Assembly: GCA_031082125.1 (NCBI GenBank)
Contig: JAVHLM010000003.1
Coordinates: forward strand, 288,842 to 352,841
Length of the DNA: 64,000 nt
Direction of reading: 5' to 3'
Source of the DNA: Vulcanimicrobiota bacterium
Lineage (GTDB): Bacteria; Vulcanimicrobiota; CADAWZ01; Ess09-12
Shown: one piece after another, positions 34,757 to 49,711 of the stretch
Layout: the number at the start of each line of letters is the position of its first letter
Numbering within the stretch: position 1 is the stretch's first letter
Translations under genes and position numbers: made by a program
Notes under the pieces: generated by a model
Told to the model about the DNA's origin: nothing
Seen by the model: the letters and a program-made list of their open reading frames with translations, nothing else
Database searches by the model: none

Positions 34757-34801
34757 GTGCGTCAGTATACCCATAGTAGACGCCATACAGGAGAAGCAAC
34801 A

Positions 34802-36610: not shown

Positions 36611-36942
36611 ATAATTGGCCTGAAGTCTGATCGGCTTACCCTGCTTCCGAGTAGCCGCTTCAGGCTGATAATGATGGTATGAGGGAGGCAAGCGAGCCAT
36701 GCCCTCATTATGGAAGCAGAGTGTGCAGATACCATGGTGTGTTGAAAGGAGTCTTCATTGCGGTGGGCGAATTTCAGTATTTCAATGCGGTATTCGCCAG
36801 GGCCTTGAAAATATGGCTCTCTATAAAGATACCCGCGTCAATATGCGAAGCCACCTGATAATATCTCTCCCTGCGGGAAAGAATGCCGGCCGCATTTCAT
36901 TGAAAAGCCTGTGTGCACAGACAGTGAGAAGGAGGACCCCTC

Positions 36943-38190
36943 ATGGGAACCAATGAAGGGACAGGAGTCTCTTTCAGAGGGAAAGTCTTCCGCACTCCTA
37001 AAAAGAACCCGGGCAGCCCGCGGCTCATGGAGCCCGAGGAAGCCCTGGAGCTCATGAAACCCTTTCTCAGGAAAACAGGGCTCACGCGCTTTGCGCAGAT
37101 CACGGGCCTTCGAAGCGTGGGCATCCCGGCGGTGAACGCCATAAGGCCCATAAGCCATAACTCATCGGTAACCCATGGAAAAGGCCTCACCCTGGCCCAT
37201 GCCCTGGCCTCGGCAGCAGGGGAGTCCATAGAGCGCTATTGCTGGTTCAACTGTACCGTTCCCGCCTTCAGCAGCACCTATAATGATCTGAAAGAGCGGC
37301 GCACCGTGATCCCCATGGAAAGGCTGGCCCTTTCCAGGTTCTCGCTCTTCAGGCCTGACCTTCCTGAACAGTGGATGCTCGGCTGGGACCTCATGCATGA
37401 CGAGGAGGTGCCGGTGCCTTTTTCATCGGTGAGCAGGTCCGGCACCTGTTTCACCACGGAGCTCCGCTCCTTCCAGAGCACGTCAAACGGCCTCGCCTAC
37501 GGCGTGGACTTCCTGGAGGCCCTCTCTCAGGCAATCGAGGAAGTGGTGGAGCGGGACGCCGTCGCCTGCATGGATATGGCCCTCCTGTCAGGCCGGATAC
37601 CGCTCTCGAAAGTCCGCGTGGACCTCTCCACCATACCTTTCGAGACCATCGGGGGACTCATCGGAAAAATTGAAGAAGCGGGGCTCCTCCCTGTCCTGCT
37701 GGACTGCACTACCGATACGGCGATCCCCGTTTATCACTGCATGCTCCTCGATGACAAGAAATGCTACGTCGGATCAGGGGCGAGCCTGAGCCCCGAGACC
37801 GCCATGGCAAGGGCCTTCACCGAAGCGGCCCTCGCCCACGCCGTGCTGTTCAGCGGGGTGAGAGACGTTTATTTCAGGGACGAGAGGCTTGCAGGCTCGC
37901 TCGTCGATTTCAGGAAGCAGATGGCAGAATCCCTCGAAGCCCCGGCGGAAAGGAGCGCACGTGGCCTTTCCGCCGAAAGGACCGGGTCCTTTGAGGGGGA
38001 CATCGCCGTGATGAAGGATAAACTCCGGGGTGCCGGCATCGACCAGCTCATCGTGATAGACCTTCCAGAGCCAGGCCTCCCGGGGAGCGTGGTAAAGGTG
38101 ACGGCCCCCGGCCTCGAGGGATACCACCATACTATTGCCTATCGTCCGGGCTCCAGGGCTCTCAGCCGCATGAGCGGAGAGCGGCCCTGA
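36943..38190 (+). CDS. YcaO-domain protein (TfuA-associated type; ATP-dependent backbone amide activation)
   Basis: AGGAGG RBS. N-terminal LTRFAQITGLRSVGIPAVNAIRP and the canonical YcaO ATP-binding region GKGLTLAHALASAAGESIERY. Later TTDTAIPVYHCML (TD..IPV motif). Confidence 0.85.
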   Translation: MGTNEGTGVSFRGKVFRTPKKNPGSPRLMEPEEALELMKPFLRKTGLTRFAQITGLRSVGIPAVNAIRPISHNSSVTHGKGLTLAHALASAAGESIERYCWFNCTVPAFSSTYNDLKERRTVIPMERLALSRFSLFRPDLPEQWMLGWDLMHDEEVPVPFSSVSRSGTCFTTELRSFQSTSNGLAYGVDFLEALSQAIEEVVERDAVACMDMALLSGRIPLSKVRVDLSTIPFETIGGLIGKIEEAGLLPVLLDCTTDTAIPVYHCMLLDDKKCYVGSGASLSPETAMARAFTEAALAHAVLFSGVRDVYFRDERLAGSLVDFRKQMAESLEAPAERSARGLSAERTGSFEGDIAVMKDKLRGAGIDQLIVIDLPEPGLPGSVVKVTAPGLEGYHHTIAYRPGSRALSRMSGERP

Positions 38191-38242
38191 AAGCCCGGGG
38201 AACTGCGAAAGCGGTAAGAATATAAAAGAAAGGAGGGATGAC

Positions 38243-38530
38243 ATGTCTTTGGAAAAAGCGAAAGATGCGCTGAAGAAGATCATGAATGATCCGGACTTCA
38301 GCAGGAAGATGATCAATGTGAAGAGTGATCAGGAAGCGATAGAGCTCCTCTCTTCCCATGGCTTCAAGTTTACCAAGGAAGAATTCGAAAAGGCGAAGCA
38401 TGAGATGAGACAGGCTGTTATCAGCGACGCTGAGCTCGCAGGCGTGGCTGGAGGAAGCGACAGCTCCAACAAAACAGCTTATCCGGTTGCGAACAGTGTG
38501 ACAGTCGGAGCGGCGGCGGCTGCTTTCTAG
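38243..38530 (+). CDS. Nif11-type RiPP precursor peptide with Gly-Gly leader cleavage motif
   Basis: AGGAGG 7 nt before the ATG. Leader MSLEKAKDALKKIMNDPDFSRKMINVKSDQEAIELLSSHGFKFTKEEFEKAKHEM is a Nif11-family leader. ELAGVAGG is the double-glycine motif. Predicted core is SDSSNKTAYPVANSVTVGAAAAAF (24 aa). Confidence 0.8.
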   Translation: MSLEKAKDALKKIMNDPDFSRKMINVKSDQEAIELLSSHGFKFTKEEFEKAKHEMRQAVISDAELAGVAGGSDSSNKTAYPVANSVTVGAAAAAF

Positions 38531-38614
38531 AAGGCCATGAAGGGGCACACCGGCATCAGAGCGGTGTGCCCCTCATGAATTCCCATGAAGCCTTACAGGG
38601 CGGGAGGAATGTTC

Positions 38615-40009
38615 ATGAAGTGCGTGATCTTTACAGGGCCGACCCTCTCAAAGGAGGAAGCCCAGCCCTGGCTTGAAGCCATCTATCTGCCTCCCGCCAG
38701 GCAGGGAGACATAATAAGCGCCATATTCACCCACATGCCCGACATCATAGGCATCATCGACGGCGCGTCCTATCCGGACCTGGAAGTATGGCACCGGGAG
38801 CTGCTCTACGCGCTTGAGAACGGCATTGCCGTGTACGGCTCATCGTCAATCGGGGCGCTCCGGGCAGCGGAGCTGGATATCCATGGCATGCAGGGTGTGG
38901 GAAAGATATATGAGGGCCTCAAGGGCATTGAGGTGAGCGACGATGACGAGGTAATGTGCCACTATGAGTGCAGCGGCTCTCACCGGCGCATCTCCGAGCC
39001 CCTGGCGAACATCAGGGCGACTTTTGAGGCCCTCCACAGGGAGCGGCTGATTGACGGGAAGCTTGTGGCGACCCTTCCCGCCCTGGCGAAGTCGCTGCAT
39101 TACAGGAAGCGCACCTTTCAGGCGATCCTGGAAAAAGCCCGCAACGCCGGGGTGCTTTCCGAAAAGCAGGCCGAAGAGCTTCTCAATCATACGAGGTCCT
39201 GTTACGTGGATCTCCAGAAAGAAGACGCGATTGAACTTCTCAAGGCCGTCAAAAAGGCCATGGAGACCGGCGGCAGGGCACCGTACGGGAAGATTGTTGA
39301 CCGTTCCGACGATCTGATCTTCCACGTGGCGAAGTACAGGGACCGCACCATCTCACGTGACGGCGAAGGGGAAGGGCTCCCCCTGTTCTCGCTGGTGGAT
39401 TACATGGTCCTTACCCACCCTGAAGCCGACGAGCTTGCCGTGAGTGCAAAGAACCGTTTCCTGGCGGGAGTGCTTGCCGACATGCTTCACGTTGAGGCAT
39501 CTGACAGGGAGACAGGGGAGGAAGCCCTGACCTTCAGGACGCGCTATGGCCTCGAGGATCAGGAGCGATTCGGAGAGTGGCTTGCCGAAAACGATCTCGT
39601 CGAGGAAGAGTTCAGGCGGCTGATGGAACAGAACGCGAAGATGAAGGCGCTTCATGACTGGCTGAGGGACAAGCTCGGCCAGAGAAAGTTCACAAGGGTC
39701 ATCACCGATGAGCTCATGCTGACGGACCAGTATTCCCGGTGGGTCGGGAAAGCGCTCCTGGCCGAGAAGCTCTATCAGGAGCGCCGCGAGTACGGCGAAG
39801 AGCTCTTGAGCATCGAGGCTCCGGAGAAGCTGGTAAGGGACCACGTGGCGGGGGCTCCAAGGGAATGGCACAGGATCTTCAGGAAGGTCATGGAAGGGAT
39901 GGAGATCACCGATATCATGCTGAAACACCAGCTTGTCAAGGCCAGGATAGAGAGGGAGACGCTGGAAAAGGCGCTGCTGAGGCATCTCGAGCCGGCGGCC
40001 CACGAGTGA
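38615..40009 (+). CDS. TfuA-like protein (YcaO partner for thioamidation) with ~270-aa C-terminal extension
   Basis: MKCVIFTGPTLSKEEAQ...IYLPPARQGDIISA...IIGIIDGASYPDLEVWHRELLYALENGIAVYGSSSIGALRAAEL matches the TfuA domain. The start is taken at 38615 (GGAGG + 7 nt); an alternative ATG is at 38585. Confidence 0.8.
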   Translation: MKCVIFTGPTLSKEEAQPWLEAIYLPPARQGDIISAIFTHMPDIIGIIDGASYPDLEVWHRELLYALENGIAVYGSSSIGALRAAELDIHGMQGVGKIYEGLKGIEVSDDDEVMCHYECSGSHRRISEPLANIRATFEALHRERLIDGKLVATLPALAKSLHYRKRTFQAILEKARNAGVLSEKQAEELLNHTRSCYVDLQKEDAIELLKAVKKAMETGGRAPYGKIVDRSDDLIFHVAKYRDRTISRDGEGEGLPLFSLVDYMVLTHPEADELAVSAKNRFLAGVLADMLHVEASDRETGEEALTFRTRYGLEDQERFGEWLAENDLVEEEFRRLMEQNAKMKALHDWLRDKLGQRKFTRVITDELMLTDQYSRWVGKALLAEKLYQERREYGEELLSIEAPEKLVRDHVAGAPREWHRIFRKVMEGMEITDIMLKHQLVKARIERETLEKALLRHLEPAAHE

Positions 40010-40024
40010 TGAAAGGAGGCTTTT

Positions 40025-41899
40025 ATGACCCGCAAGCCCGTTGATGTGCTGCTTCTCAACCCGCCCCTCAGCCTGCCGATGCCCTATCTGAGCATCCCTG
40101 TCCTTGCCTCGTACCTCAGGTCGCAGGGAATCAGCGTTGCCGCGTACGACGTGAACGGCGAGTTCTATTACCGCTTCATCACAAGAGAAAACGTACGCAG
40201 AGGGATCTCCCACGCGGCGGAGAGGCTCCAGGTGCTCAACGGCAGGGAAGAGCTGCGCTTCACCGAGATGATTGAGTATATCTCCAGTTACTACTACCTC
40301 ACGGAAGTGGAGAAAAACCTCCCCAAGGTCACGGCCTATCTTTTCCCCTTCTCGGACTGGAAACTGCTCCAGCAGCTTGATATCGACAAGCTTTTGATGA
40401 CCCTCGCAACTCTCCCTTATTTCCCGGAGATCCTGGTCACAAAGCCCCAGTTCATGTACACAAGCCCTTACTATGAGTTCTCATCGAAAGAGATTATGGA
40501 GAGCACAGGCCATGAGAGCTTTTATTCCGCCGCGGTGAGGGAGATCATGGAAGATCTCCTCAGTGAGTATGACCCGAAACTCATCGGTATCTCGCTCGCC
40601 TTCAGCGTACAGGCCCTTCCCGCATTCCTGATGGCGCGGTTCATCAAGGAGATTAGGCCTGAGTGCCACCTCACCATAGGGGGGACCTTCGTCTCATCGT
40701 ACATGCGCAGCCTCAGGGACGACACGCTCTTCCGCCATGTGGACAGCTTCGTGCTTGACGAGGGGGAGTTCCCTCTTGTGCAGCTTTTGAGGGAGTACGC
40801 CGGGGGAAAGCCCGACCTCAGAAAGGTTCAGAACCTCATCTTTGCCGAGAAGGGAGAGGTGATCTATACCGGGCCTGCCGAGCCCTTTGACCTGGAGAAG
40901 TCCTCCGCGCCTGACTACGGGGTTTTCCCCCTTGAGAAGTACACGGTGCCCCGCGAGGACCTCATGATACTCTTCAGGATCGCGAGGGGCTGTCCCTGGC
41001 AGAAGTGCACCTTCTGCAGGACCGACATCCCCCAGTGCAGCAACTTCCAGCAGCCCTCACCGGAGCTGCTCTATGAACAGTTCCGGGAGGTAGTGAAACA
41101 GACGGGGGCGCGCCGCTATTACTTCACCTCCGACAGCGCCGATCCGCTGGTTCTGGAATATTTTGCAAGGAGAATCATTGACGACGGCTTGAAAATAGAC
41201 TGGTACTGCCACACCCGTGTTGACCTGAGGCTTACCAGGGAGCGCTGCGAGCTTTACGGGAAATCAGGGTGCACCGGCATCTATCTCGGTGTTGAGACCT
41301 TCAACGACAGGATACTGAAACTGATGAACAAGGGCATCACTTCTGAGTGTGCAGACCGGGTCCTCCGCCAGGTTGAAGGCGCCCTGGACCTCCGCCTCTA
41401 CATGATGGTGGGCTTCCCCGGCGAGACCAGAGAAGAGGCCCTTGAAGACTTCCGCAGAGTGCAGGAATATCTGAAGCTCGGCCTTATCAAGGACTACCAC
41501 TTCTCACCGGTGCAGATACTGCAGGGCTCCGCCATGTACCGGGACCTCGAAAAATACGGCATCACCAGCCTCATCACCACCGAGGGGGCCGATCTCGAGG
41601 GCGAGGTAAGCAACTTCACAAGCAGCGGGATGTCGCTGCAGCAGGTCATCGAATTTTTCCAGCAGTACGCTGCCGACCGCAGCAAGATCTTCCCGGAGTT
41701 CTTCTCCTCGGAGGGCCGGGAGCACCGGAGCCTCCGGATCAATGGCCGCGAGGTGGAGGCTGCCTTTGACATCGCTCAGATCGTGAGGACGGTGGACAGC
41801 CTCTGGGAGTTCGCGTACCTCACCAAGTCAAGATGGCTGGCCCTCGGCGAGAGCCGCATCGCCCCCCTGAAGCCCATGCTCACCGGGATGAGGCAGTGA
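40025..41899 (+). CDS. B12-binding-domain radical SAM protein, paralog 1 of 3
   Basis: N-terminal B12-binding Rossmann region (VDVLLLNPPLSLPMPYLSIPVLASYLRSQGISVAAYD). Cys cluster ARGCPWQKCTFCRTD has CX4CX2C spacing, checked against the DNA frame. About 620 aa. Confidence 0.8.
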   Translation: MTRKPVDVLLLNPPLSLPMPYLSIPVLASYLRSQGISVAAYDVNGEFYYRFITRENVRRGISHAAERLQVLNGREELRFTEMIEYISSYYYLTEVEKNLPKVTAYLFPFSDWKLLQQLDIDKLLMTLATLPYFPEILVTKPQFMYTSPYYEFSSKEIMESTGHESFYSAAVREIMEDLLSEYDPKLIGISLAFSVQALPAFLMARFIKEIRPECHLTIGGTFVSSYMRSLRDDTLFRHVDSFVLDEGEFPLVQLLREYAGGKPDLRKVQNLIFAEKGEVIYTGPAEPFDLEKSSAPDYGVFPLEKYTVPREDLMILFRIARGCPWQKCTFCRTDIPQCSNFQQPSPELLYEQFREVVKQTGARRYYFTSDSADPLVLEYFARRIIDDGLKIDWYCHTRVDLRLTRERCELYGKSGCTGIYLGVETFNDRILKLMNKGITSECADRVLRQVEGALDLRLYMMVGFPGETREEALEDFRRVQEYLKLGLIKDYHFSPVQILQGSAMYRDLEKYGITSLITTEGADLEGEVSNFTSSGMSLQQVIEFFQQYAADRSKIFPEFFSSEGREHRSLRINGREVEAAFDIAQIVRTVDSLWEFAYLTKSRWLALGESRIAPLKPMLTGMRQ

Positions 41900-43794
41900 T
41901 GAAGAAAGAAGCAGAGGTGCTCCTCATCAATCCCCCCTTCGCAGAGCCGCGGCCCTATATCAGCATCCCCACGCTTGTTTCATATCTTGAGTCCCGGGGC
42001 ATCCGCACCGCGGCATATGATCTCAACTGCGAGTTTTTCTACCGCTTTCTCACAAGGGAGAGGATCCGCAGGGGCATAGAATATGTTTCGGAGAGGTTCC
42101 TCGAGCTTAACGGCAGAGATGAGCTCGCCTTCAGGGAGATGCTTGAATACACGGTATGCTGCGATTTGCTCAGGGACATGGAGGAGCACCTGGGGAAGCT
42201 CACCCTGGCGCTCCTGCCTTTTTCAGATTTCCAGATACTCAGGAGCCTGGAGCTTGAGAGCCTGCTCAGCGGCCTCACGACAGCCCCCTATTTTCCCGAG
42301 CTCCTGATCTCGAAGCCCCAGTTCACTTATGCAAGCCCCTATTTCGAGTACTCCACGGCCGACATCGCGGAGAGCACGGGCCATGAGAGCTTTTATTCCG
42401 CCCTCTTAAGAGAGATAATCGCTGAAATACTCGACGAGTATGAGCCCAGGGTGGCGGGCATCTCAATAGTGCTCACAGAGCAGGTGGTGCCTGCTTTCCT
42501 TGCGGCACGCATCATCAAGGAGTTGAAGCCTGACCTTCATGTAACGGTCGGCGGGCCCTTTGTCTCCACTTATCTGAAGGATCTCAAGAACACGGTGCTC
42601 TTTGATTACGTGGACAGCCTGGTCTTTGACGAGGGTGAGCTCCCCCTCGAGCAGCTCGCCAGGGAGCTCGCGGGCACGAAGCCCGACCTCGGGAGAGTGC
42701 AGAACCTCGCATATCTGAAAAACGGGAGCCTTGTATCCACTCCCCCGGCAGAAACACTTCCTGCCGAGGCATCGCCTCCTCCCGACTACAGGGCCCTTCC
42801 CCTGGACAGGTATCTTGTCTCAGAAAGAAACGCCGAGATGCTCTTCAGGCTCTCGAAGGGATGCTCGTGGCACCGCTGCACCTTCTGCAGGACCGACATC
42901 GCGATGTGCCGGGAATACCGGCAGGCCCCTCATTCCTTCGTCTATGAGAGCCTGCTCGAGGTCATCAGGGACACGGGGTGCGGCAGGTTCCGCTTTACCA
43001 GCGAAGATTCTGACCCGCTGCTCCTTGAGCATATCTCGAAGAGGCTCCTGGAAGACGGCATATCCATAAAGTGGCGATGCCACGCACGCGTTGACGCGCG
43101 GTTCACCAGGGAGCGCGGCGAGCTCTACCGCAAGGCGGGGTGCACGAGCCTTTACCTCGGCGTGGAATCTTTCAGCGACAGGATCCTGCGCATGATGAAC
43201 AAGGGGATTACCTGCGGGCTCATTGACAGGGTCCTCACAGAGCTCGGCGGCGGCGTTCCCGTGCGCCTCTATATGATGGTGGGATTTCCGGGGGAGACTG
43301 AAGAAGAGGCGCTCGCCGGGTACGGGAAGGTGCGCTCCCTTCTTGAGCAAGGCCTTATCGGCGACTATAAGTACTCTATCTTCGAGATGCAGTCAGGATC
43401 AGAAGTGGGGGAGCACCCGGAGCGTTTCGGCCTCAGTGATCTTAGCCGTTACCCGCGCTCGGACCTGCCCTCTGAGATACTGGAGTTCGAAAGCAGAGGG
43501 ATGCCCAGGGAACGGGCTCTCATGCTGGCCGCAGAGTTCGAGAAAAACAGGAGAGAGTGGGATCCCCAGCTGGACAGGGTCTGTGAGCGCTATGAAGAGA
43601 CGGTTGAGCACGTCACTGTGAAGGGAGACCCCGTGGAGGTGAGGTTCAACGTCAAGGAGATACTGGAGAGAATGGCCCATTCCACGGGGCTCTATTTCCT
43701 CCCCCGGATCGGGGAATGGATACGGTACGGGGAACAGCATATCACCCCTGTCAGGGCTGCCCGCCGGGCGTCGCAGCCGCTCAGCACTGTATGA
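41899..43794 (+). CDS. B12-binding-domain radical SAM protein, paralog 2 of 3
   Basis: ATGA overlap with paralog 1. SKGCSWHRCTFCRTD. Collinear similarity to paralog 1 throughout (for example SPYYEFS/SPYFEYS, ESTGHESFYSA in both, YMMVGFPGET in both). Confidence 0.8.
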   Translation: MKKEAEVLLINPPFAEPRPYISIPTLVSYLESRGIRTAAYDLNCEFFYRFLTRERIRRGIEYVSERFLELNGRDELAFREMLEYTVCCDLLRDMEEHLGKLTLALLPFSDFQILRSLELESLLSGLTTAPYFPELLISKPQFTYASPYFEYSTADIAESTGHESFYSALLREIIAEILDEYEPRVAGISIVLTEQVVPAFLAARIIKELKPDLHVTVGGPFVSTYLKDLKNTVLFDYVDSLVFDEGELPLEQLARELAGTKPDLGRVQNLAYLKNGSLVSTPPAETLPAEASPPPDYRALPLDRYLVSERNAEMLFRLSKGCSWHRCTFCRTDIAMCREYRQAPHSFVYESLLEVIRDTGCGRFRFTSEDSDPLLLEHISKRLLEDGISIKWRCHARVDARFTRERGELYRKAGCTSLYLGVESFSDRILRMMNKGITCGLIDRVLTELGGGVPVRLYMMVGFPGETEEEALAGYGKVRSLLEQGLIGDYKYSIFEMQSGSEVGEHPERFGLSDLSRYPRSDLPSEILEFESRGMPRERALMLAAEFEKNRREWDPQLDRVCERYEETVEHVTVKGDPVEVRFNVKEILERMAHSTGLYFLPRIGEWIRYGEQHITPVRAARRASQPLSTV

Positions 43795-45629
43795 AAAAAC
43801 CTGTTGACGTGCTTCTCATCAATCCTCCCTTCTCAAGGCCCGATGAGCCTGTGATAGGCATCGCCACCCTCGCGGCATATCTCAAGACGAGGCAGATCAC
43901 TGTCGAGGCGAAAGATGCAAGCCTCGAGCTCTTTCGCAGAACAGTAACGAATGACTGCATCAATGAAGAGAGAGCCTATGCCGGAGAGAGGTTCACGGAG
44001 CTCAACGGCAGAAGCGTTCTCGACTTCTGCGGGATCTATGAGTACGTGAGGCTCTTTTCCCTGCTTCTGCGCCTGCAGGGGCTTCAGGGCATCTTTGATG
44101 ATGCCGGGGGGGATCTCTGGGAAAAGCTCAGGCATGCAAGCGACACGGTGAGGTCCTCGTTTCTCGAGCTTGCCACGGCATCGTTCTTTCCCCGCTTCAT
44201 ACTCTATGGAGGCCCGCCGACCTTCAGCTGCCACTCTCCTTACCACCACTTCTCCAAAGCCGACATACTCGCTTCCCTTGACGATCCCGCCTGGTACTCC
44301 GAGGCGCTCGAGAATACTATTGCACTGTACTTTGAGGAGATGAGCCCGCGGATCGCCGCAATCTCGGTGTCATACTTTAACCAGATTATTCCGGCCTTTC
44401 AGTGCGCCCGCATCATAAGAAGGATTGCGCCGGGTGTCCATATCAGCATGGGAGGATCGGCGGTCCAGATATTTTTTCGGAAGGTGAGGGATACCGGGCT
44501 CTTCGCCATTGTTGACACCATTGCCACCGGAGACGGCGAGGCGACGCTCGAGGCGCTCTCACGAGAGCTTCAGAGGAAGTCAGCCTCACTGGAGGCGGTG
44601 CCAGGAATCATCTACCTGTCAGGCACGATGGTGAAAAAAAATGACCCGGCGCCGCCCCTTCCTGTTGAAGGCCTCTCCCTCCCCGATTACAGGGCCTTCC
44701 CCCCGGAAGACTTCATGGCCGGCCCCGAGGCAATGCGCTTGCCCCTGAGGCTCTCGAAGGGGTGCTCCTGGGGCAGGTGCTCCTTCTGCCGGACCGAGCT
44801 TTCCATGATAAAAGCGTACCAGGCGCCGACGGCGGGGCGCCTCTTCCCGATGGTCACCGATTTCATCATTGCCACGGGGTGCCGGAAGATCCACTTTGCC
44901 GACGAGTCAATTGATCCCGAAGCCCTGGAGGAGATCTCGAAAGAGCTCATCGGCAGGGAACTCACCCTTGACTGGAACTTTCAGACGAGAATCAACAGAA
45001 AGATCACTGAGAGGCGCTGCAGGCTCTTCAGGGAGGCGGGATGCTCGGCCATCTCCTTCGGTGCAGAATCCTTCAGCGACAGGGTCCTTGGCCTGATGAG
45101 CAAGGGCATCACGGCAGAGCTCATAGAAAAGGTGCTCTATGAGGCCGGGAGCGTTCTGCCTGTCACCATCTTCATGATGGTGGGCTTCCCCGGCGAGACC
45201 GAAGAGGAAGCGAGGGAGAGCTTCAGGAAAGTCCGGGAGCTTGCCCGGGCAGGAGTGATCCGCGATTATATCTACTCCCCCTTCATTATCCACTCAGGCT
45301 CTGCAATGATGGCGGAGCCGGGGCGCTACGGCATCACCGAGCTGCACCACGGTCCTGGAGAAGACCTTTCACCTGATATCATCGATTATCAGTGCACCGG
45401 CATGGCAAGGGAAAAAGCCAGGGAGCTCTTCATCGAGTTTTCCCGGAGCCAGGCAGGCCGCCGGCCCTGGCCGCCGGAGGTCAGGATAGGAAAAAATACC
45501 GTTCCGCGGAGGTTTGACGTGGAAGAAATGATGGGGATCATTGCCCGGGAGACCTCCATGCGCCCTGCGATGCCCCTCTACCGCCTGATCATCACGGCAG
45601 AAGCGTCGCTTGCTCCTGAATCCATATGA
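43791..45629 (+). CDS. B12-binding-domain radical SAM protein, paralog 3 of 3
   Basis: ATGA overlap with paralog 2. SKGCSWGRCSFCRTE. The family block FMMVGFPGETEEEA is shared. Confidence 0.8.
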   Translation: MKKPVDVLLINPPFSRPDEPVIGIATLAAYLKTRQITVEAKDASLELFRRTVTNDCINEERAYAGERFTELNGRSVLDFCGIYEYVRLFSLLLRLQGLQGIFDDAGGDLWEKLRHASDTVRSSFLELATASFFPRFILYGGPPTFSCHSPYHHFSKADILASLDDPAWYSEALENTIALYFEEMSPRIAAISVSYFNQIIPAFQCARIIRRIAPGVHISMGGSAVQIFFRKVRDTGLFAIVDTIATGDGEATLEALSRELQRKSASLEAVPGIIYLSGTMVKKNDPAPPLPVEGLSLPDYRAFPPEDFMAGPEAMRLPLRLSKGCSWGRCSFCRTELSMIKAYQAPTAGRLFPMVTDFIIATGCRKIHFADESIDPEALEEISKELIGRELTLDWNFQTRINRKITERRCRLFREAGCSAISFGAESFSDRVLGLMSKGITAELIEKVLYEAGSVLPVTIFMMVGFPGETEEEARESFRKVRELARAGVIRDYIYSPFIIHSGSAMMAEPGRYGITELHHGPGEDLSPDIIDYQCTGMAREKARELFIEFSRSQAGRRPWPPEVRIGKNTVPRRFDVEEMMGIIARETSMRPAMPLYRLIITAEASLAPESI

Positions 45630-45645
45630 CAGGGAGGAGAAAAAC

Positions 45646-46746
45646 GTGTTCACAGAAAAGAGCCGCCTTTCCCTCAAGAGAACCATATACTCGGTGATGC
45701 TTGACGGCAAAGATCTCGTGCTTCTTTGCACCCCCTGCGAGCCCGTGGTGCTGAAGGAGCTCTCACCTTTCAGAAGGGAACTCCTCATTCTGCTTGACGG
45801 GAGGCGCACCGCGGGAGAGATCATGCAGGAGCTGAACGCGCGGGGCCATCGGTGCATTTTCAGCAAGGTGAGGGAAGAGCTTGATCGGCTCGATGAGTGG
45901 CTCCTTCTGGAAGAGGAGGGTGATGCTCCTTTGCCGGAGGATACAGAGCATGCGGGGCGTAACGACCGCACGCGCCTGTGGTTCGCCGCCAGGAGGACCT
46001 CAGGTGCCTCCTTTGCCCGCCAGGCAGAGAGAGATCTCCAGTCGGCCCATATCGTCCTCTTCGGCCTGGGAGGGCTGGGCTCGCAGCTCTTCACCCAGCT
46101 CCTGCTGACAGGCATCGGTGAGATCACCGCCGTTGACTGCGAGAAGGTGGAGGAGAGCAACCTGAACAGGCAGAGCCTCTTCTACGAGAGCAACGTGGGC
46201 CGCCTGAAGACGGAGGCTGCGGCGGAGCGGGCCCGGCTGATGAACAGCTCAGCATCCATTCATTTTGTGGATAAGAGAATCGCCTCGGCTGGAGACTTCG
46301 CCTCACTGATGGCCCCTGCGAGCCTGGCGCTCCTCGCCGCCGATACTCCCCGCGACATGATATTCGACTGGATGAACGAGGCCAGTTACACGACAGGCGT
46401 GCCGGTGCTCTACAGCAACGGTGTCCTCCAGTCCTCCATGGGGATCGGCCCGCTGGTGATCCCTGGCAGGACGGCGTGCTATCAGTGCTCGATGCCCGAA
46501 GGCGCCCGTTTTGAAGACCCCCTCGTGGAGCAGATCAACAGGCGGCACTGCCACGGGGTGATACTCCCTCCTCTTGCCATGTGCGCGGGTCTTATGGTGC
46601 TTGAGCTCGTGAGGCATCTCACTGGATGCGAACCCTGCCGGATTTATGACCGCAGGCTTCACATGGACTTCAGAAATTACCGGATGTGGTTCCAGGATAT
46701 AGAAAAGCGCCGGAGCTGCCCTTTCTGCGAACAGAGAGCGCCATGA
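45646..46746 (+). CDS. E1-like (ThiF/MoeB/HesA-family) protein with N-terminal PqqD-like RRE domain
   Basis: GGGAGGAG + 6 nt + GTG start. The N-terminal ~90 aa (YSVMLDGKDLVLL...ELLILLDGRRTAGEIMQELNARG) resemble RiPP recognition elements. E1 Rossmann motif IVLFGLGGLGSQLF...ITAVDCEKVEESNLNRQ. Paired CxxC zinc motifs (CYQC...CPFC). Confidence 0.75.
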   Translation: MFTEKSRLSLKRTIYSVMLDGKDLVLLCTPCEPVVLKELSPFRRELLILLDGRRTAGEIMQELNARGHRCIFSKVREELDRLDEWLLLEEEGDAPLPEDTEHAGRNDRTRLWFAARRTSGASFARQAERDLQSAHIVLFGLGGLGSQLFTQLLLTGIGEITAVDCEKVEESNLNRQSLFYESNVGRLKTEAAAERARLMNSSASIHFVDKRIASAGDFASLMAPASLALLAADTPRDMIFDWMNEASYTTGVPVLYSNGVLQSSMGIGPLVIPGRTACYQCSMPEGARFEDPLVEQINRRHCHGVILPPLAMCAGLMVLELVRHLTGCEPCRIYDRRLHMDFRNYRMWFQDIEKRRSCPFCEQRAP

Positions 46747-46807
46747 CAGGCTGCAGGCTCCCCGCCGGTGAATTGGCGCCCGGCAGGCTTCCTGAGGTGT
46801 GCCTTGG

Positions 46808-49711
46808 CTAGGTGAGCTGGCGGTCCGCCAGCTTCCTGAAGGTGCCCTCGACGCTCATGAGCTCTTTGAAGGTGCCTGCCTGCACGATCCTCCCTTTCTC
46901 CAGCACATAGATCCTGTCGGCCTTCACCACGGTGCTGAGCCTCTGTGCTATTACTATCTTTGTGGCCTTGAGAGTGAGAAGCTGTTCCGTCACCACGCTC
47001 TGGACCCTGTTGTCAAGAGAGCTCGTCGCTTCATCGAAGAGCAGTATTCTCGGCTTTTTCGCCAGGGCCCGGGCTATCAGGAGCCTCTGCTTCTGGCCTC
47101 CTGAGAAAGTCTGTTCCCCTTCCATGACCACGGTGTGCATTCCCATCGGCATGGCCTTGATATCCTGGTCTATGCCGGCTGTCCTTGCTGCCTCCCACGC
47201 GTCATCGAGGGAGAGCTCCACCGAGCCCGAGATGTTGGAAAAGATATCGCCGGCCATCAGCTCGCTTTTCTGCAGCACTGCTCCAATCTGGCTCCTCACG
47301 GCCGAGATGTCGAGGGTCCCGAGGTCTCTCCCGTCATAGTAAAGGGCCCCCTGCTCGGGCGCCTCAAAGCCGAGGAGGCACCTGAAAAGGGTTGATTTCC
47401 CTGATCCCGAGGGCCCCACGAAGGCAATAAACTCGCCGGGCTTCGCCTGGAAGGTGACGCTCTTCAGCACCATGGGACCGTCGGTCCTGTAACGGAAAGA
47501 GAGATTGCTCGCCTCCACGGCACCATGGAGCTCGCCGGGGTCAAGCTTCTCCTCGTCAACCTCCTGTAATGCCTCAAATATAGGCTTCATCCTGTCGTAG
47601 AGGGGAACGCTCCTTACGAGCTCCCCCGCAATGGCACCCAACTGGATCATGGCGGCAAGAAACCCGGTGAAGGCGGCGTTGAAAGCGAGAAAATTCCCCA
47701 GGCTCATGGAGGTCCCTCCGATGACCTCAGCGTTATGCTCCATGGTGGCGGCGAGAGCAAAAATTGCGCCTGCGGACAGGAGAGGGAGCATTGAGGTGAA
47801 GACCTCGAGACGGGCGCCCACAAGGCCGGCTTTATAGGAAAAGTTTTTCTGACGCGAGAACTTCCCGGCCCATTCTGAAAAAGCGAGAGCCTGTGCCCCT
47901 GCTATCTTTATCTTGCCGATCCCTTTCACAAGGTCAAAGACGAAGCCATAGAGCTGTCCCTGGATATTGATCTCTCTGCGGGCGAGGGAAAGCTGGAGAG
48001 AGCTGGCAAGAATAATCGCCGCGAGCAGTGCCAGGGCAAAGAGAGCGGCAGTTATTGCAAGACTGCTCTGATAATAGAAAAGGATCAGAAAGCTGAAGGA
48101 GGCATAGATCGCCCCCTGTATGGCCGGTAAGGCAAGGCCCTCGAAGAACTGGCTCATGATGGAGTCGAAGCCCAGGGAGCGCATGGCGAGATCACCTGAC
48201 GAGTACCTGTTGAAGAAAGCGCAGGGCAGGGCCATGAGCCGATCCCACAGGGCGCACTGGATGACGCCCTTGGCCGTTCCTTCCATCCTGAGAAAAGCAA
48301 CACCCTGGGTAAACTGAAAGACTGCCACCGCAAGAGAGCCCGCCAGAAGGGCCACGGAGAGCTGCACCAGGAGGGGCATCTCCCTTTCCGGGACTATCAA
48401 GTCAAAGATTATCCCCGTCGCCACAGGAATAAGCAGGCCGAATAACCCCATTGCCATCGCCACAAAAACCGATACCTTCATGTCGGATTTAAGCAGCGGC
48501 AGGCTGATGAGCAGGATATCCCGTAGGGAAAGAGGTTTATTGGGAAAGGGCCTGTAGAGCATGTAAGCCTTAGTATCAATGGAGGCGGCTCTCTCCCTGT
48601 CAACAGGAAACTCGGAAATTTCACCTGAAGCAACCCCCTTATAGCGTCCTTTACAAGGCAGAAGAGCCAGAGGCTTCCCCGATTCCTTGAGAAAACCGAC
48701 CATGGGCCCCCTTTCCCTCTTCCACCAATCACCTTCGAGGGTGACTCTCCGCGTCCTCACCTTTGACGCTCTTGAAATGGCCGAAAGAGAGAGGGGTGGA
48801 GCATTCTCCCCATGCGAAGCAGGAGGCTCTTTCAGCGTGAAATGCATATATTCAGCCACACGCCGGCAAGCGTTGAAAAGAGGCGATTCGCCGGAAGGCG
48901 CCTCCTCCCCGGGTGAGCCTGCCTTCTCCGTTGATGAGGCGAGATAATGGAGGGCTTTACTCAATACCTGGCCCTCATGCTGCCTCCTCTGCTCAATGGT
49001 CTCCGATTCCCTGCGCTCCTGCCCGTCCATCGAATGGCCGATGGCGCAGAGCACCGCCCTGTGAAACGCGCTGAGCCCGGCAAGCTCCCGGTCTTCCGCG
49101 ACGTAGTGGGCGGTAGTCAATGACTTCAGCCTTGAGGGCTCGCGGCATGATGCCCATCCAAGGCGGGAGAGGGGGAAGTATGAGCCGGAAAGGGCGCATG
49201 GCTCTCCATCGATGCCCATAAATGCCGAGGCCCCTTCCCGGTGTGAGATCCACAGGACGGGAGCGAGTGAGCTGATGGCGTCATCCTTCTCAGCGAGGTA
49301 CTCTTCACCTTCGGTGAGAAGCCTCAGCTTTCTTGGAAGTGATGCCGTTCTGAGAAGCCCCCTCGAAAGCGCCTCGATCCATCGGTCAGCAAGAGGGACA
49401 AGCTCCGCGCCAACTGCTGAGATACTTGTCTCTTGGAGCTCTGTCCCGTTTTCGCCCACGGCGAGGAGTGCGATGCCCTGAAAGGGCTCGAAACCGAAGA
49501 GAGCCTCATCCTTCTCAATTGTGCAGACATAATGACGGTATGAGGCCGCGCCGCCATGCCTCACGGCAAAGATATTGACACGGTTTTTCCTCACTATCCA
49601 GACAGACCCCGTTCCTTCGGCAAAAAAAGGCTCATTTCCGCCGACGGCTCTTCTGCCTTCAGGTCTGTTGCTCTCGTTTCTGCCGTCTCCTTCCATGCTC
49701 CGCTCCCTCAA
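46808..49711 (-). CDS. ABC transporter permease/ATP-binding protein with ~420-aa N-terminal cytoplasmic extension (NHLM/Nif11 bacteriocin-export type, non-peptidase subunit)
   Basis: C-terminal half has six TM helices and an NBD (Walker A GPSGSGKST, signature FSGGQKQRL, Walker B ILLFDEAT). The N-terminal 420 aa have no C39 Cys/His motif and no recognised domain. Confidence 0.75.
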   Translation of the reverse strand: MRERSMEGDGRNESNRPEGRRAVGGNEPFFAEGTGSVWIVRKNRVNIFAVRHGGAASYRHYVCTIEKDEALFGFEPFQGIALLAVGENGTELQETSISAVGAELVPLADRWIEALSRGLLRTASLPRKLRLLTEGEEYLAEKDDAISSLAPVLWISHREGASAFMGIDGEPCALSGSYFPLSRLGWASCREPSRLKSLTTAHYVAEDRELAGLSAFHRAVLCAIGHSMDGQERRESETIEQRRQHEGQVLSKALHYLASSTEKAGSPGEEAPSGESPLFNACRRVAEYMHFTLKEPPASHGENAPPLSLSAISRASKVRTRRVTLEGDWWKRERGPMVGFLKESGKPLALLPCKGRYKGVASGEISEFPVDRERAASIDTKAYMLYRPFPNKPLSLRDILLISLPLLKSDMKVSVFVAMAMGLFGLLIPVATGIIFDLIVPEREMPLLVQLSVALLAGSLAVAVFQFTQGVAFLRMEGTAKGVIQCALWDRLMALPCAFFNRYSSGDLAMRSLGFDSIMSQFFEGLALPAIQGAIYASFSFLILFYYQSSLAITAALFALALLAAIILASSLQLSLARREINIQGQLYGFVFDLVKGIGKIKIAGAQALAFSEWAGKFSRQKNFSYKAGLVGARLEVFTSMLPLLSAGAIFALAATMEHNAEVIGGTSMSLGNFLAFNAAFTGFLAAMIQLGAIAGELVRSVPLYDRMKPIFEALQEVDEEKLDPGELHGAVEASNLSFRYRTDGPMVLKSVTFQAKPGEFIAFVGPSGSGKSTLFRCLLGFEAPEQGALYYDGRDLGTLDISAVRSQIGAVLQKSELMAGDIFSNISGSVELSLDDAWEAARTAGIDQDIKAMPMGMHTVVMEGEQTFSGGQKQRLLIARALAKKPRILLFDEATSSLDNRVQSVVTEQLLTLKATKIVIAQRLSTVVKADRIYVLEKGRIVQAGTFKELMSVEGTFRKLADRQLT

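What the first reader, a model, noticed from the sequence alone, without database searches (positions are those of the whole stretch)
38243..38530. Nif11-family leader peptide with double-glycine site and short Val/Ala/Gly-rich core
The 95-aa ORF has the Nif11 leader (…DPDFSRKMINVKSDQEAIELLSSHGFKFTKEEFEKAKHEM…) ending in ELAGVAGG. The core is SDSSNKTAYPVANSVTVGAAAAAF. This core lacks Cys, so thiazoline/lanthionine chemistry is excluded. Small aliphatic residues (Val, Ala, Gly) are the type of substrate C-methylated by B12-radical-SAMs in proteusins. The poly-Ala tail with a C-terminal Phe is unusual. Only one precursor copy is visible in the cluster.
Basis: seen in the sequence. Interest (0 to 1): 0.8.

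Follow-up and report, generated by a model that had tools for sequence, protein, structure and literature searches.

The report
Nif11 precursor of thioamidated, methylated peptide
This small gene is a real precursor of a secreted, enzyme-modified peptide, and its neighbours predict sulfur-for-oxygen swaps in the backbone, carbon methylations and activation of the peptide's tail, an untested combination seen here only in a few metagenome-derived lineages.

Summary
ORF 38243-38530 (+) encodes the 95-aa peptide as quoted. It passes the curated cut-offs of both Nif11 leader models, has a canonical double-glycine site (…ELAGVAGG71|S72), and is under purifying selection (dN/dS 0.08-0.31).

The precursor sits between a YcaO and an unusually long TfuA. 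The YcaO's closest solved relative is the McrA thioglycine enzyme MJ1094.

Three paralogous B12-type radical SAM genes follow, then an MccB-like enzyme (peptide-binding domain plus E1 adenylation domain). A complete NHLP/Nif11 export set, including a C39 peptidase transporter, lies convergent.

The seven-gene module recurs with different flanks in at least three other lineages, at least one of them also Vulcanimicrobiota/Xenobia. Variant clusters elsewhere drop the YcaO/TfuA pair or the radical SAM genes, but keep the MccB-like enzyme and an Ala-rich …AAxAF C-terminus. The "unusual" tail is therefore a family signature, possibly the adenylation site.

No product has been characterised. A 2021 mining survey listed a similar predicted cluster. 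Verdict: a genuine precursor and a new variant of known RiPP kinds, of moderate interest (0.55).

The parts
36943..38190 (+). YcaO (415 aa), predicted ATP-dependent backbone amide activator for thioamidation
   Evidence: PF02624 197.6 bits. Best NCBIfam hit is the McrA-glycine thioamidation YcaO TIGR03266 at 156 bits (below its equivalog cut-off), against TOMM SagD at 98 bits. Best PDB hit is MJ1094 (6pe3) at 92.8 bits, against TruD 29 and LynD 24 bits. Orthologues are 69-77% identical in L001, L008 and L017.
38232..38236 (+). Ribosome-binding site GGAGG of the precursor gene
   Evidence: Read from the sequence. Invariant in the alignment of the window, L001 and L003.
38243..38455 (+). Leader peptide (residues 1-71), Nif11 type, ending ELAGVAGG
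   Evidence: TIGR03798 54.3 bits (cut-off 32.3) and PF07862 35.5 bits (cut-off 23.8). Double-glycine pattern V-4, L-7, E-8, I-12. Leader dN/dS 0.09-0.30.
38456..38530 (+). Core peptide SDSSNKTAYPVANSVTVGAAAAAF (residues 72-95) plus the TAG stop. The N-terminal 9 residues vary. The C-terminal 15 residues are conserved as P-[VI]-A-[NE]-S-[VI]-T-V-G-A-A-A-x-A-F.
   Evidence: Orthologous cores: QDSSNKTAYPVANSVTVGAAAAAF (L003), DNHTSAAVPVAESITVGAAASAF (L001, L017), DNAHSAAVPIAESITVGAAAMAF (L008). Unmodified monoisotopic mass 2298.113 Da.
38536..38577 (+). Strong stem-loop immediately after the precursor stop codon. It has no T-run, so it is probably a transcript-stability or attenuation element that sets the precursor-to-enzyme ratio (inferred).
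   Evidence: RNA fold -36.3 kcal/mol, z -4.9, 0 of 200 shuffles fold as well. Both arms are conserved in L001, L002 and L003 while the loop and flanks vary. There are no compensatory double changes. The terminator scan does not call it.
38615..40009 (+). Long TfuA (464 aa from the MKC start; the ORF opens at 38585). It has a TfuA domain plus a conserved C-terminal extension of about 245 aa of unknown function.
   Evidence: PF07812 120 bits. NF033432 McrA-type TfuA 198.7 bits, below its cut-off of 235. The PDB TfuA 6xp8 covers residues 12-227 only. The extension is conserved in seven lineages, including the variant clusters. It gives only weak SurA_N_3 and Trigger_C hints in 2 of 6 members. The start was chosen from the RBS and the orthologue alignment.
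40025..41899 (+). Radical SAM 1 (624 aa), B12-type, predicted peptide C-methyltransferase
   Evidence: PF04055 64.2 bits (above cut-off). PF02310 B12-binding 24.7 bits (below cut-off 32.1). TIGR03975 RiPP C-methyltransferase 92.7 bits (cut-off 281.85). Cluster motif GCPWQKCTFC, i.e. Cx4Cx2C.
41899..43794 (+). Radical SAM 2 (631 aa from the ATG that overlaps the stop of radical SAM 1), sister paralogue of radical SAM 1 (about 47% identity)
   Evidence: PF04055 52.4 bits, PF02310 28.3 bits, TIGR03975 94.3 bits. The start is supported by full-length alignment to orthologues. Tree.
43791..45629 (+). Radical SAM 3 (612 aa; ATGA overlap with radical SAM 2). In the variants examined, the ThiF-adjacent radical SAM gene is closest to this paralogue (L013's single radical SAM is an exception).
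   Evidence: PF04055 56.1 bits, TIGR03975 119.9 bits. The ThiF-adjacent radical SAM genes of L006, L018 and L019 match radical SAM 3 best.
45646..46746 (+). MccB-like enzyme (366 aa from the GTG start used by NCBI; the ORF opens at 45610). It has an N-terminal peptide-binding (RRE/clamp) domain plus an E1/ThiF adenylation domain.
   Evidence: PF00899 134 bits. Best PDB sequence hits are MccB (85.8 bits, E 3e-23) and PaaA, ahead of ThiF and MoeB. The AF2 model has pLDDT 87.5 and pTM 0.84. Foldseek's top hits are MccB, TM 0.75-0.86 over about 360 columns including the N-terminal domain. The P-loop GxGxxG, and D, R, K, D and four Zn-binding Cys residues, are invariant across 20 homologues.
46808..49711 (-). 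NHLP/Nif11 bacteriocin export ABC transporter, permease/ATPase subunit (967 aa)
   Evidence: TIGR03797 823.8 bits (cut-off 709.4). Homologues lie beside the variant clusters L005 and L013.
49716..51914 (-). NHLP-family export ABC transporter with an N-terminal C39 peptidase (732 aa). Predicted to cleave after Gly71 during export.
   Evidence: TIGR03796 1013.7 bits (cut-off 853.3). PF03412 Peptidase_C39 117.8 bits. A 67%-identical homologue follows ThiF and HlyD on the same strand in L019.
51918..52742 (-). NHLP bacteriocin system secretion (HlyD-like) protein, short form (274 aa)
   Evidence: TIGR03794 218 bits (cut-off 156.2). A 54%-identical 270-aa homologue follows ThiF in L019.

Best explanation
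The ORF is a translated Nif11-type RiPP precursor with a 71-aa leader and a 24-aa Cys-free core. It is the substrate gene of a conserved seven-gene module: YcaO, precursor, long TfuA, three B12-type radical SAM enzymes, and an MccB-like RRE-ThiF enzyme.

Proposed maturation (all steps inferred from homology; none shown):
(1) The enzymes hold the leader. Candidate binding modules are the RRE of the ThiF-like protein and the TfuA C-terminal extension.
(2) YcaO phosphorylates backbone amide oxygens using ATP, and TfuA delivers sulfide equivalents. This gives one or more thioamides in the conserved aliphatic stretch P81-F95, most likely the V-G-A-A-A-A-A tract.
(3) The three radical SAM paralogues add C-methyl groups at distinct sites. 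Candidate residues by analogy are Val, Ile, Thr, Pro and Phe.
(4) The ThiF-like enzyme adenylates a carboxylate, most plausibly the conserved C-terminal Phe95, for capture by a nucleophile.
(5) The convergent NHLP exporter cleaves after Gly71 with its C39 domain and secretes the hydrophobic modified core.
For: Precursor is real:
- Both curated HMM cut-offs are passed.
- RBS and ORF are conserved, and dN/dS is 0.08-0.31.

The module is a unit:
- The same seven genes, in the same order, occur in L001/L002, L008/L009 and L017 (Ca. Xenobiia LiM19) with unrelated flanks.

Thioamidation:
- YcaO and TfuA flank the precursor.
- The YcaO is closest to the thioamide-forming MJ1094 (92.8 bits, against 29 and 24 bits for TruD and LynD) and to TIGR03266.
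- TfuA is closest to the McrA-type model and to 6xp8.
- Thioamitide YcaO/TfuA pairs iteratively thioamidate Val, Met, Ala and Ile residues (bioRxiv 10.1101/2020.12.17.423248).

Methylation:
- There are three radical SAM proteins with B12-binding-like N-termini. Their best NCBIfam hits are the TIGR03975 RiPP C-methyltransferase and PhpK families.
- In bottromycin, three such enzymes methylate Phe, Val and Pro. PoyC methylates Val and Ile (PMC11285071).

ThiF step:
- The fold is MccB-like over the full length.
- Catalytic and Zn residues are invariant.
- IndF and EnfB are precedents for RRE-ThiF enzymes that activate a RiPP C-terminal carboxylate (PMC12596934).
- The …AAxAF tail and the ThiF-like gene co-occur in four different cluster architectures, including ones without YcaO/TfuA (L006) or without radical SAM genes (L005).

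Export:
- All three NHLP export equivalog cut-offs are passed.
- Homologous exporters adjoin L005 and L013, and follow ThiF in the same operon in L019.
Against: - There are no chemical data for any member.
- YcaO, TfuA and the radical SAM proteins all score below the NCBIfam equivalog or subfamily cut-offs. The B12-binding Pfam hits are below the gathering score.
- B12-type radical SAM enzymes can also catalyse chemistry other than methylation.
- The sites and numbers of modifications are guesses.
- The ThiF-like protein could be only a leader-binding scaffold.
- In L001, L008 and L017 no exporter lies within 10 kb, so linkage to the exporter in the window is not universal.
- The sample of variant clusters is small and was found through precursor similarity, so the tail-ThiF correlation has no negative control.
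Confidence: 0.7

Rival explanations
1. The ThiF-like protein performs no chemistry on the peptide. It is only the leader-binding (RRE) scaffold that presents the precursor to the radical SAM enzymes and/or YcaO, like the E1-like partners of azoline-forming YcaOs. In that case the conserved AAxAF tail matters for product activity or for another enzyme.
For: RRE-ThiF proteins that serve only for peptide binding are documented (PMC12596934 section 3.6). No separate RRE was recognised in the radical SAM proteins or the YcaO. The ThiF-like gene is adjacent to a radical SAM gene in most variants.
Against: The nucleotide-binding P-loop, the Arg, Lys and Asp catalytic residues and the four Zn-binding cysteines are invariant across 20 homologues down to 24% identity. 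That is expected for an active adenylating enzyme. The gene also occurs without any radical SAM gene in L005. The closest solved relatives are the catalytic MccB and PaaA.
Confidence: 0.3
2. YcaO together with the E1-like (ThiF) protein acts as a cyclodehydratase. It would convert the conserved Ser85 and Thr87 into oxazoline and methyloxazoline rather than making thioamides.
For: A YcaO plus an E1-like RRE partner is the classic azoline machinery. The core keeps Ser and Thr at fixed positions (S-[VI]-T) in all four full-module lineages. There is a weak TIGR03603 SagC-like hit in the ThiF protein (E 1.2e-5).
Against: A TfuA gene is always adjacent wherever this YcaO occurs in a locus long enough to check. 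The YcaO scores 92.8 bits to the thioamide enzyme MJ1094, against 24-29 bits to LynD and TruD. No azoline dehydrogenase gene is in the module. The protein has no C-terminal PxPxP motif (sequence; the motif's role is from my own knowledge of Dunbar et al. 2014). The ThiF-like gene also occurs without YcaO (L006, L018, L019).
Confidence: 0.07
3. The peptide is an unmodified, Gly/Ala-rich, membrane-active class II-type bacteriocin that is only cleaved and exported. The neighbouring enzymes would act on something else.
For: It has a double-glycine leader, a dedicated C39 transporter, and a hydrophobic Gly/Ala-rich core.
Against: The precursor is embedded between YcaO and TfuA, in a gene order conserved across lineages whose flanks differ and which often lack a nearby exporter. 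Related Ala-rich Nif11 peptides elsewhere are again followed by YcaO (L015, L016, L020).
Confidence: 0.03
4. The ORF is a chance or untranslated reading frame.
For: None found.
Against: HMM E-values are 1e-14 and 1e-8, above the curated cut-offs. The RBS is conserved. dN/dS is 0.08-0.31 with dS of 0.56-0.98.
Confidence: 0.01

Closest known systems
Predicted Nif11-precursor TfuA/YcaO clusters of the 2021 thioamidated-RiPP mining survey (e.g. Desulforegula conservatrix; Malit et al., PMC8120280)
   Same: A Nif11-type precursor with a GG site, adjacent YcaO and TfuA, B12-domain radical SAM genes, and dedicated Nif11/NHLP transporters. The Figure 4 legend also lists a MoeB-type adenylyltransferase and a GT4 glycosyltransferase. 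This resembles the variant clusters L013 and L020 seen here.
   Different: The survey gives bioinformatic listings only, with no product, no core motif and no analysis of the ThiF-like enzyme. The window's version has three radical SAM paralogues, no glycosyltransferase, and comes from Vulcanimicrobiota/Xenobia. I could not retrieve the Desulforegula locus to compare sequences directly.
Thioamitides (thioviridamide, thiostreptamide S4)
   Same: A YcaO/TfuA pair iteratively thioamidates consecutive small aliphatic residues (Val, Met, Ala, Ile) of a ribosomal peptide.
   Different: Thioamitides need a C-terminal Cys for the AviCys macrocycle and a HopA1/phosphotransferase dehydratase pair. This core has no Cys, and the module has no such genes. 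The leader type (Nif11), the B12-type radical SAM genes, the ThiF-like enzyme and the PCAT export are absent from thioamitide clusters.
McrA thioglycine system (methanogen YcaO MJ1094 plus TfuA)
   Same: These are the closest solved or curated relatives of both enzymes.
   Different: That system's substrate is a large enzyme subunit, not a leader-bearing secreted peptide. The window proteins score below the equivalog cut-offs. TfuA here carries an extra domain of about 245 aa.
Bottromycin and proteusin (polytheonamide) B12-radical SAM C-methylation
   Same: Several paralogous class-B radical SAM enzymes act on Val, Ile, Pro and Phe of a ribosomal peptide (PMC11285071). Bottromycin also combines three such enzymes with YcaO proteins.
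   Different: Bottromycin uses a follower peptide and makes a macroamidine and a thiazoline. Proteusins have NHLP leaders and epimerases, and PoyC has a Cx7Cx2C motif. Here the leader is Nif11, there is no epimerase, the motif is Cx4Cx2C in all 21 homologues, and TIGR03975 is missed by a wide margin.
RRE-ThiF (MccB-like) RiPP enzymes: MccB, PaaA, GrcB, EnfB, IndF
   Same: Two-domain architecture and fold (TM about 0.8 to MccB) and conserved adenylation residues. EnfB and IndF activate the C-terminal carboxylate of a hydrophobic tail.
   Different: There is no C-terminal Asn (MccB), no Glu-Glu (PaaA), no Cys (GrcB) and no Trp (IndF, EnfB) in the conserved part of the core. The nucleophile, if any, is unknown. 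Neither ThiF-RiPP review mentions Nif11, or TfuA or YcaO thioamidation, alongside a ThiF-like enzyme.

Membership tests
Nif11-leader RiPP precursors (TIGR03798 / PF07862) | Leader matches the family HMMs above the curated cut-offs | tested here: met
   TIGR03798 54.3 bits against 32.3. PF07862 35.5 bits against 23.8.
Nif11-leader RiPP precursors (TIGR03798 / PF07862) | Double-glycine cleavage motif at the leader end | tested here: met
   …S-11 D A E-8 L-7 A G V-4 A G-2 G-1 | S. GG is conserved in all orthologues.
Nif11-leader RiPP precursors (TIGR03798 / PF07862) | Associated NHLP/Nif11 export set (C39-ABC, second ABC, HlyD-like) | tested here: met
   TIGR03796 1013.7 bits against 853.3. TIGR03797 823.8 against 709.4. 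TIGR03794 218 against 156.2.
YcaO/TfuA thioamidated RiPPs | Adjacent ycaO and tfuA genes beside a precursor | tested here: met
   YcaO 36943-38190, precursor 38243-38530, TfuA 38615-40009. The same order holds in L001, L008 and L017.
YcaO/TfuA thioamidated RiPPs | YcaO of the thioamide-forming rather than azoline-forming type | tested here: inconclusive
   It is closest to MJ1094 (92.8 bits against 29 and 24 for TruD and LynD) and to TIGR03266 (156 bits). That score is below the equivalog cut-off of 365.
YcaO/TfuA thioamidated RiPPs | Thioamide bonds in the mature product | not testable with these tools
   Needs mass spectrometry or NMR.
Thioamitides | C-terminal Cys plus internal Ser/Thr for the AviCys macrocycle, with a HopA1/phosphotransferase dehydratase pair | tested here: not met
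   The core has no Cys. No such genes lie between 36943 and 46746.
Proteusins | Nitrile-hydratase-like (NHLP) leader | tested here: not met
   Only Nif11 models hit. There is no NHLP model among the NCBIfam hits at E <= 0.01.
Proteusins | Radical SAM epimerase in the cluster | tested here: not met
   The only radical SAM genes in the module are the three B12-type paralogues of about 620 aa.
Class B (cobalamin-dependent) radical SAM methyltransferases | Radical SAM core domain with a Cys triad | tested here: met
   PF04055 52-64 bits against 29.5. The triad is present but as the variant Cx4Cx2C (GCxWxxCxFC) in all 21 homologues.
Class B (cobalamin-dependent) radical SAM methyltransferases | N-terminal cobalamin-binding domain | tested here: inconclusive
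   PF02310 hits of 19.4-28.3 bits are below the 32.1 gathering score. Weak PDB hits to CysS and OxsB.
Class B (cobalamin-dependent) radical SAM methyltransferases | Membership of the curated RiPP C-methyltransferase subfamily TIGR03975 | tested here: not met
   92.7, 94.3 and 119.9 bits against a cut-off of 281.85.
RRE-ThiF (MccB-like) peptide-modifying adenylyltransferases | N-terminal peptide-binding domain fused to an E1/ThiF adenylation domain | tested here: met
   The AF2 model (pLDDT 87.5) aligns to MccB over about 360 columns, TM 0.75-0.86. The PaaA sequence alignment covers residues 22-218.
RRE-ThiF (MccB-like) peptide-modifying adenylyltransferases | Intact nucleotide-binding and Zn-binding residues | tested here: met
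   GxGxxG, D164, R175, K188, D233 and four Cys residues are invariant in 20 homologues. They align with the corresponding MccB segments.
Microcin C-type peptide-nucleotides | Precursor ends in Asn, which is needed for the succinimide and phosphoramidate | tested here: not met
   The C-terminus is Phe in all orthologues.
Unmodified double-glycine (class II) bacteriocins | No dedicated modification enzymes linked to the precursor | tested here: not met
   Six enzyme genes are syntenic with the precursor in four lineages.

The most novel reading that the evidence does not exclude
The Ala-rich tail with a hydrophobic last residue (…AAxAF-COOH) marks a distinct, uncharacterised RiPP family whose defining enzyme is the MccB-like RRE-ThiF protein. 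That enzyme would adenylate the C-terminal carboxylate of a Nif11-led peptide. This would create a new C-terminal chemistry, for example a thiocarboxylate made with TfuA-supplied sulfide, or a lactone or imide macrocycle onto the conserved Ser, Thr or backbone. YcaO/TfuA polythioamidation and B12-radical SAM methylation would be interchangeable add-on modules. TfuA would carry a previously undescribed chaperone-like substrate-binding domain.
Probability: 0.3. Interest if true: 0.75.

Novelty: new variant of a known kind. Interest (0 to 1): 0.55.

Why it matters
Peptide backbone thioamides are rare in nature. The characterised ribosomal examples cited here are thioamitides, thiovarsolins and a few thiopeptides from Actinobacteria, plus McrA and uL16.

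This locus predicts a peptide that combines thioamides with multiple radical C-methylations and an E1-like carboxylate activation, in the largely uncultured phylum Vulcanimicrobiota (formerly Eremiobacterota). If confirmed, it would:
- give a new scaffold class;
- extend the substrate range of ThiF-like RiPP enzymes to a Phe C-terminus;
- offer a modular enzyme set for peptide engineering, because natural variants exist with and without the thioamide or methylation modules.

The precursor itself is ordinary and is already auto-annotated. The value lies in the cluster context.

Tried and rejected
- A second precursor copy in the window: none found by tblastn or by a Nif11 HMM on six-frame ORFs.
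- Genome-contig scan with the single ThiF-like protein: nothing found. With a four-sequence alignment, only the Spirochaetales MAG already in hand was found.
- Database search with the TfuA C-terminal extension alone: no hit at E <= 0.001. That search was wasted.
- AF2 of the long TfuA without an alignment: pLDDT 41.9, unusable, so no fold search was run on it.
- Profile of the TfuA extension against the PDB: only designed coiled coils at E about 0.004-0.009, judged meaningless.
- Rfam gathering scan of the whole window, for example for a cobalamin riboswitch upstream of the B12 enzymes: no match.
- Promoter and terminator consensus scan of 36500-47000: counts are no higher than in shuffles, and the post-precursor hairpin is not a canonical terminator.
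- Covariation in the hairpin: only one mismatch and one wobble in L001, with no compensatory pair, so there is no covariation support.
- The M16 peptidase pair and the ATP-grasp gene as cluster members: no homologues beside any related locus. I left them out of the parts list.
- A proteusin, thioamitide or microcin C identity: each fails a defining feature (see the membership table).
Full report
**1. Observation**

The window has an ATG-initiated ORF at 38243-38530 (+) of 95 codons plus TAG. A GGAGG ribosome-binding site sits 6 nt upstream.

Pfam Nif11 (PF07862) scores 35.5 bits against a gathering score of 23.8. NCBIfam TIGR03798 (Nif11-like leader peptide family RiPP precursor) scores 54.3 bits against 32.3, covering residues 1-71.

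The leader ends …S-D-A-E-L-A-G-V-A-G-G. Val is at -4, Leu at -7, Glu at -8 and Ile at -12, which is the usual double-glycine pattern. The 24-residue core, SDSSNKTAYPVANSVTVGAAAAAF, has no Cys.

A Nif11 HMM run over every six-frame ORF of the window finds only this one precursor. An identical protein is already named a Nif11-like RiPP precursor in an NCBI MAG labelled Candidatus Eremiobacteraeota.

**2. The ORF is translated and constrained**

Orthologues were recovered at 89% identity (L003/L004), 71% (L001/L002, L017) and 64% (L008). The DNA alignment keeps the RBS and reading frame, with many third-position changes. Nei-Gojobori dN/dS is 0.08-0.31 over the whole ORF, at dS of 0.56-0.98.

The first nine core residues vary. 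The last fifteen are nearly fixed: P-[VI]-A-[NE]-S-[VI]-T-V-G-A-A-A-x-A-F.

**3. Surroundings**

On the same strand the order is as follows:

| Gene | Coordinates |
|---|---|
| YcaO | 36943-38190 |
| Precursor | 38243-38530 |
| TfuA (464 aa) | 38615-40009 |
| Radical SAM 1 (B12-binding-like N-terminus) | 40025-41899 |
| Radical SAM 2 | 41899-43794 |
| Radical SAM 3 | 43791-45629 |
| ThiF-family protein | 45646-46746 |

The stops and starts of the three radical SAM genes overlap.

Three genes lie convergent on the minus strand. All pass NCBIfam equivalog cut-offs for the NHLP/Nif11 bacteriocin export system:
- TIGR03797: 824 bits against 709.
- TIGR03796, which includes a C39 peptidase domain: 1014 bits against 853.
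- TIGR03794: 218 bits against 156.

Upstream lies a bona fide typA gene. Between the precursor stop and tfuA there is a strong conserved hairpin at 38536-38577 (-36.3 kcal/mol, z -4.9) without a T-run. Its position suggests it stabilises or attenuates the transcript, as is often seen after RiPP precursor genes. That role is inferred.

**4. The module is the unit**

The same seven genes in the same order occur in three other places:
- L001/L002.
- L008/L009.
- L017, a 3-Mb contig of Ca. Xenobiia bacterium LiM19, phylum Vulcanimicrobiota.

Protein identities are 63-79%. The flanks are unrelated (AraC regulator, HhH-GPD, PIN/MazE, Clp_N), and no exporter lies within 10 kb in those loci.

A phmmer search of 1.84 billion cluster representatives finds only one representative above 50% identity to the precursor. 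There is then a gap to generic Nif11 peptides at E about 1e-8. The ThiF-like protein has one relative among the GTDB species representatives.

**5. A wider family**

Many of the weak phmmer hits are also Cys-free cores rich in Ala, Gly, Val and Thr that end in a hydrophobic residue. Their contexts are informative:

| Locus | Core tail | Neighbouring genes |
|---|---|---|
| L005 | …VVVTAAASAF | YcaO, long TfuA, ThiF-like, hydrolase, TTL and NHLP exporters; no radical SAM |
| L006/L007 (Spirochaetales MAG) | …AVGAASAAAF | Two homologous radical SAM genes and ThiF-like; no YcaO or TfuA |
| L013/L014 | Two precursors, …TVVGAVAAAF | Exporters, YcaO, long TfuA, glycosyltransferase, radical SAM, ThiF-like |
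| L020 | …AAAAAI | YcaO, long TfuA, glycosyltransferase, three radical SAM genes; locus ends there |
| L015, L016 | Ala-rich Nif11 peptides | Next to this YcaO type |
| L018 | Precursor off the contig | Radical SAM genes followed by ThiF-like |
| L019 | Precursor off the contig | Radical SAM genes, ThiF-like, then HlyD and the C39 transporter on the same strand |

In every locus where both the precursor and its neighbours can be read, the ThiF-like gene and the Ala-rich tail are the constant pair. The YcaO/TfuA pair and the radical SAM genes behave as modules.

**6. What the enzymes are**

*YcaO.* The best solved relative is M. jannaschii MJ1094, the thioamide-forming YcaO, at 92.8 bits. The azoline-forming TruD and LynD score 29 and 24 bits. 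The best NCBIfam model is the McrA-glycine thioamidation YcaO, although the score is below its equivalog cut-off.

*TfuA.* Residues 12-227 match the solved TfuA 6xp8 and the McrA-type TfuA model. The remaining 245 residues or so are conserved in seven lineages but match nothing solved. Two of six members give weak SurA_N_3 and Trigger_C hits. That is a faint hint of a chaperone-like peptide-binding domain. A single-sequence AF2 model was unusable.

*Radical SAM proteins.* The Radical_SAM domain is above its cut-off. The B12-binding domain is below the gathering score. The best families are TIGR03975 (RiPP C-methyltransferase) and PhpK, both far below their cut-offs. All 21 homologues examined carry GCxWxxCxFC, a Cx4Cx2C motif. 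Radical SAM 1 and 2 are sister paralogues. Where a variant keeps several radical SAM genes, the one next to ThiF is of the radical SAM 3 type.

*ThiF-like protein.* The best PDB sequence hits are MccB (E 3e-23) and PaaA, ahead of ThiF and MoeB. An AF2 model (pLDDT 87.5, pTM 0.84) superposes on MccB over about 360 columns, including the N-terminal peptide clamp, with TM 0.75-0.86. The P-loop, the Asp, Arg, Lys and Asp positions, and both CxxC pairs are invariant in 20 homologues.

**7. Mechanism proposed**

Every step is inferred from homology.
- Leader-dependent recruitment of the precursor.
- ATP-dependent O-phosphorylation of backbone amides by YcaO, with TfuA supplying sulfide equivalents. 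A 2026 paper summarises TfuA as a hydrolase acting on thiocarboxylated ThiS-like carriers (PMC13063428).
- One or more thioamides form in the conserved aliphatic stretch. In thioamitides the same enzyme pair iteratively modifies Val, Met, Ala and Ile residues.
- Site-specific C-methylations by the three radical SAM paralogues. As precedent, bottromycin uses three such enzymes for Phe, Val and Pro, and PoyC modifies Val and Ile (PMC11285071).
- Adenylation of a carboxylate by the MccB-like enzyme, most economically the invariant C-terminal Phe. IndF and EnfB are precedents for activation of a C-terminal carboxylate (PMC12596934).
- Cleavage after Gly71 and secretion by the C39 transporter.

**8. 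Rivals**

- *ThiF-like protein as scaffold only.* This is plausible (0.3), because such cases exist and no other RRE was detected. The fully conserved catalytic residues argue against it.
- *Azoline formation on Ser85 and Thr87.* This is unlikely (0.07), given the TfuA, the YcaO similarity profile, and the occurrence of the ThiF-like gene without YcaO.
- *Unmodified bacteriocin, or a chance ORF.* Both are effectively excluded by the synteny and the selection signal.

**9. Comparison with the known, and novelty**

The held literature contains no characterised product of this architecture. A 2021 survey of TfuA clusters listed Nif11-type precursors with B12-radical SAM genes and Nif11 transporters in Desulforegula conservatrix. 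Its figure legend mentions a MoeB-type adenylyltransferase and a GT4 glycosyltransferase (PMC8120280). Two 2025 reviews of ThiF-like RiPP enzymes do not mention Nif11, or TfuA or YcaO thioamidation, in combination with a ThiF-like enzyme.

The locus fails the defining features of thioamitides (no Cys), proteusins (no NHLP leader, no epimerase) and microcin C (no terminal Asn).

I therefore rate it a new variant of known kinds. The precursor is real and unremarkable in itself. The interest lies in the predicted triple chemistry and in the conserved tail and ThiF-like pair. Interest is 0.55.

Noticed in passing
window 38536-38577: A strong stem-loop (-36.3 kcal/mol, z -4.9) lies directly after the precursor stop codon. 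Both arms are conserved in L001, L002 and L003. It has no T-run, so it is not a canonical terminator. It may set the ratio of precursor to enzyme transcripts.
   Followed up: partly
window 39300-40009 (TfuA residues ~230-464); also L002, L005, L008, L013, L017, L020: TfuA carries a conserved C-terminal extension of about 245 aa that is absent from the solved TfuA. It has no PDB or Pfam assignment. Two of six members give weak SurA_N_3 (3e-5) and Trigger_C (0.008) hits. It may be a substrate-binding domain.
   Followed up: partly
window 40025-45629 and homologues in L002, L006, L008, L013, L017-L020: All 21 radical SAM homologues have the cluster motif GCxWxxCxFC (Cx4Cx2C). This differs from the canonical CxxxCxxC and from the Cx7Cx2C reported for PoyC.
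   Followed up: partly
window 34757-36610; L013/L014 1-1107: A typA/bipA translational GTPase gene lies immediately upstream of the cluster in the window. It passes the TIGR01394 equivalog cut-off. A 47%-identical typA also lies upstream of the distant variant cluster L013/L014. This could be coincidence or a ribosome-related link. It is absent next to L001, L008 and L017.
   Followed up: no
window 51918-52742 (-); L019 4204-5016: The NHLP-system HlyD-like secretion protein is a short form: 274 aa against a 421-aa model, matched in two pieces. A 270-aa homologue in L019 shows that this is a natural variant and not a truncation.
   Followed up: partly
window 52911-55752 (-) and 55808-57193 (+): Two M16-family peptidase genes and a divergent ATP-grasp gene lie just beyond the exporter genes. 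No homologues were seen beside any related locus, so their membership of the cluster is doubtful.
   Followed up: partly
window 58446-59270 (+): A pentapeptide-repeat protein gene lies about 5.7 kb beyond the exporter genes. Proteins of this kind serve as immunity factors in some peptide-antibiotic systems (my own knowledge: McbG, Qnr).
   Followed up: no
window 61893-63197 (-) and 19950-21356 (-): There are two further radical SAM genes in the window. One has a SPASM domain (434 aa). The other has a B12-binding domain that scores above its cut-off (468 aa). Neither is part of the conserved module, and the SPASM gene could belong to another peptide-modification locus.
   Followed up: no
window 31084-34509 (+): A large TPR-CHAT protein (1141 aa) lies upstream of typA. 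It is unrelated to the cluster as far as seen.
   Followed up: no
L018 2400-2924; L005 9158-9958 and 10495-11841; L013 13976-16012; L020 13030-14955: The variant clusters carry extra tailoring genes. L018 has an APS-kinase-like gene among its radical SAM genes. L005 has an alpha/beta hydrolase and a tubulin-tyrosine-ligase-like gene flanking the precursor. L013 and L020 have large glycosyltransferase genes.
   Followed up: no
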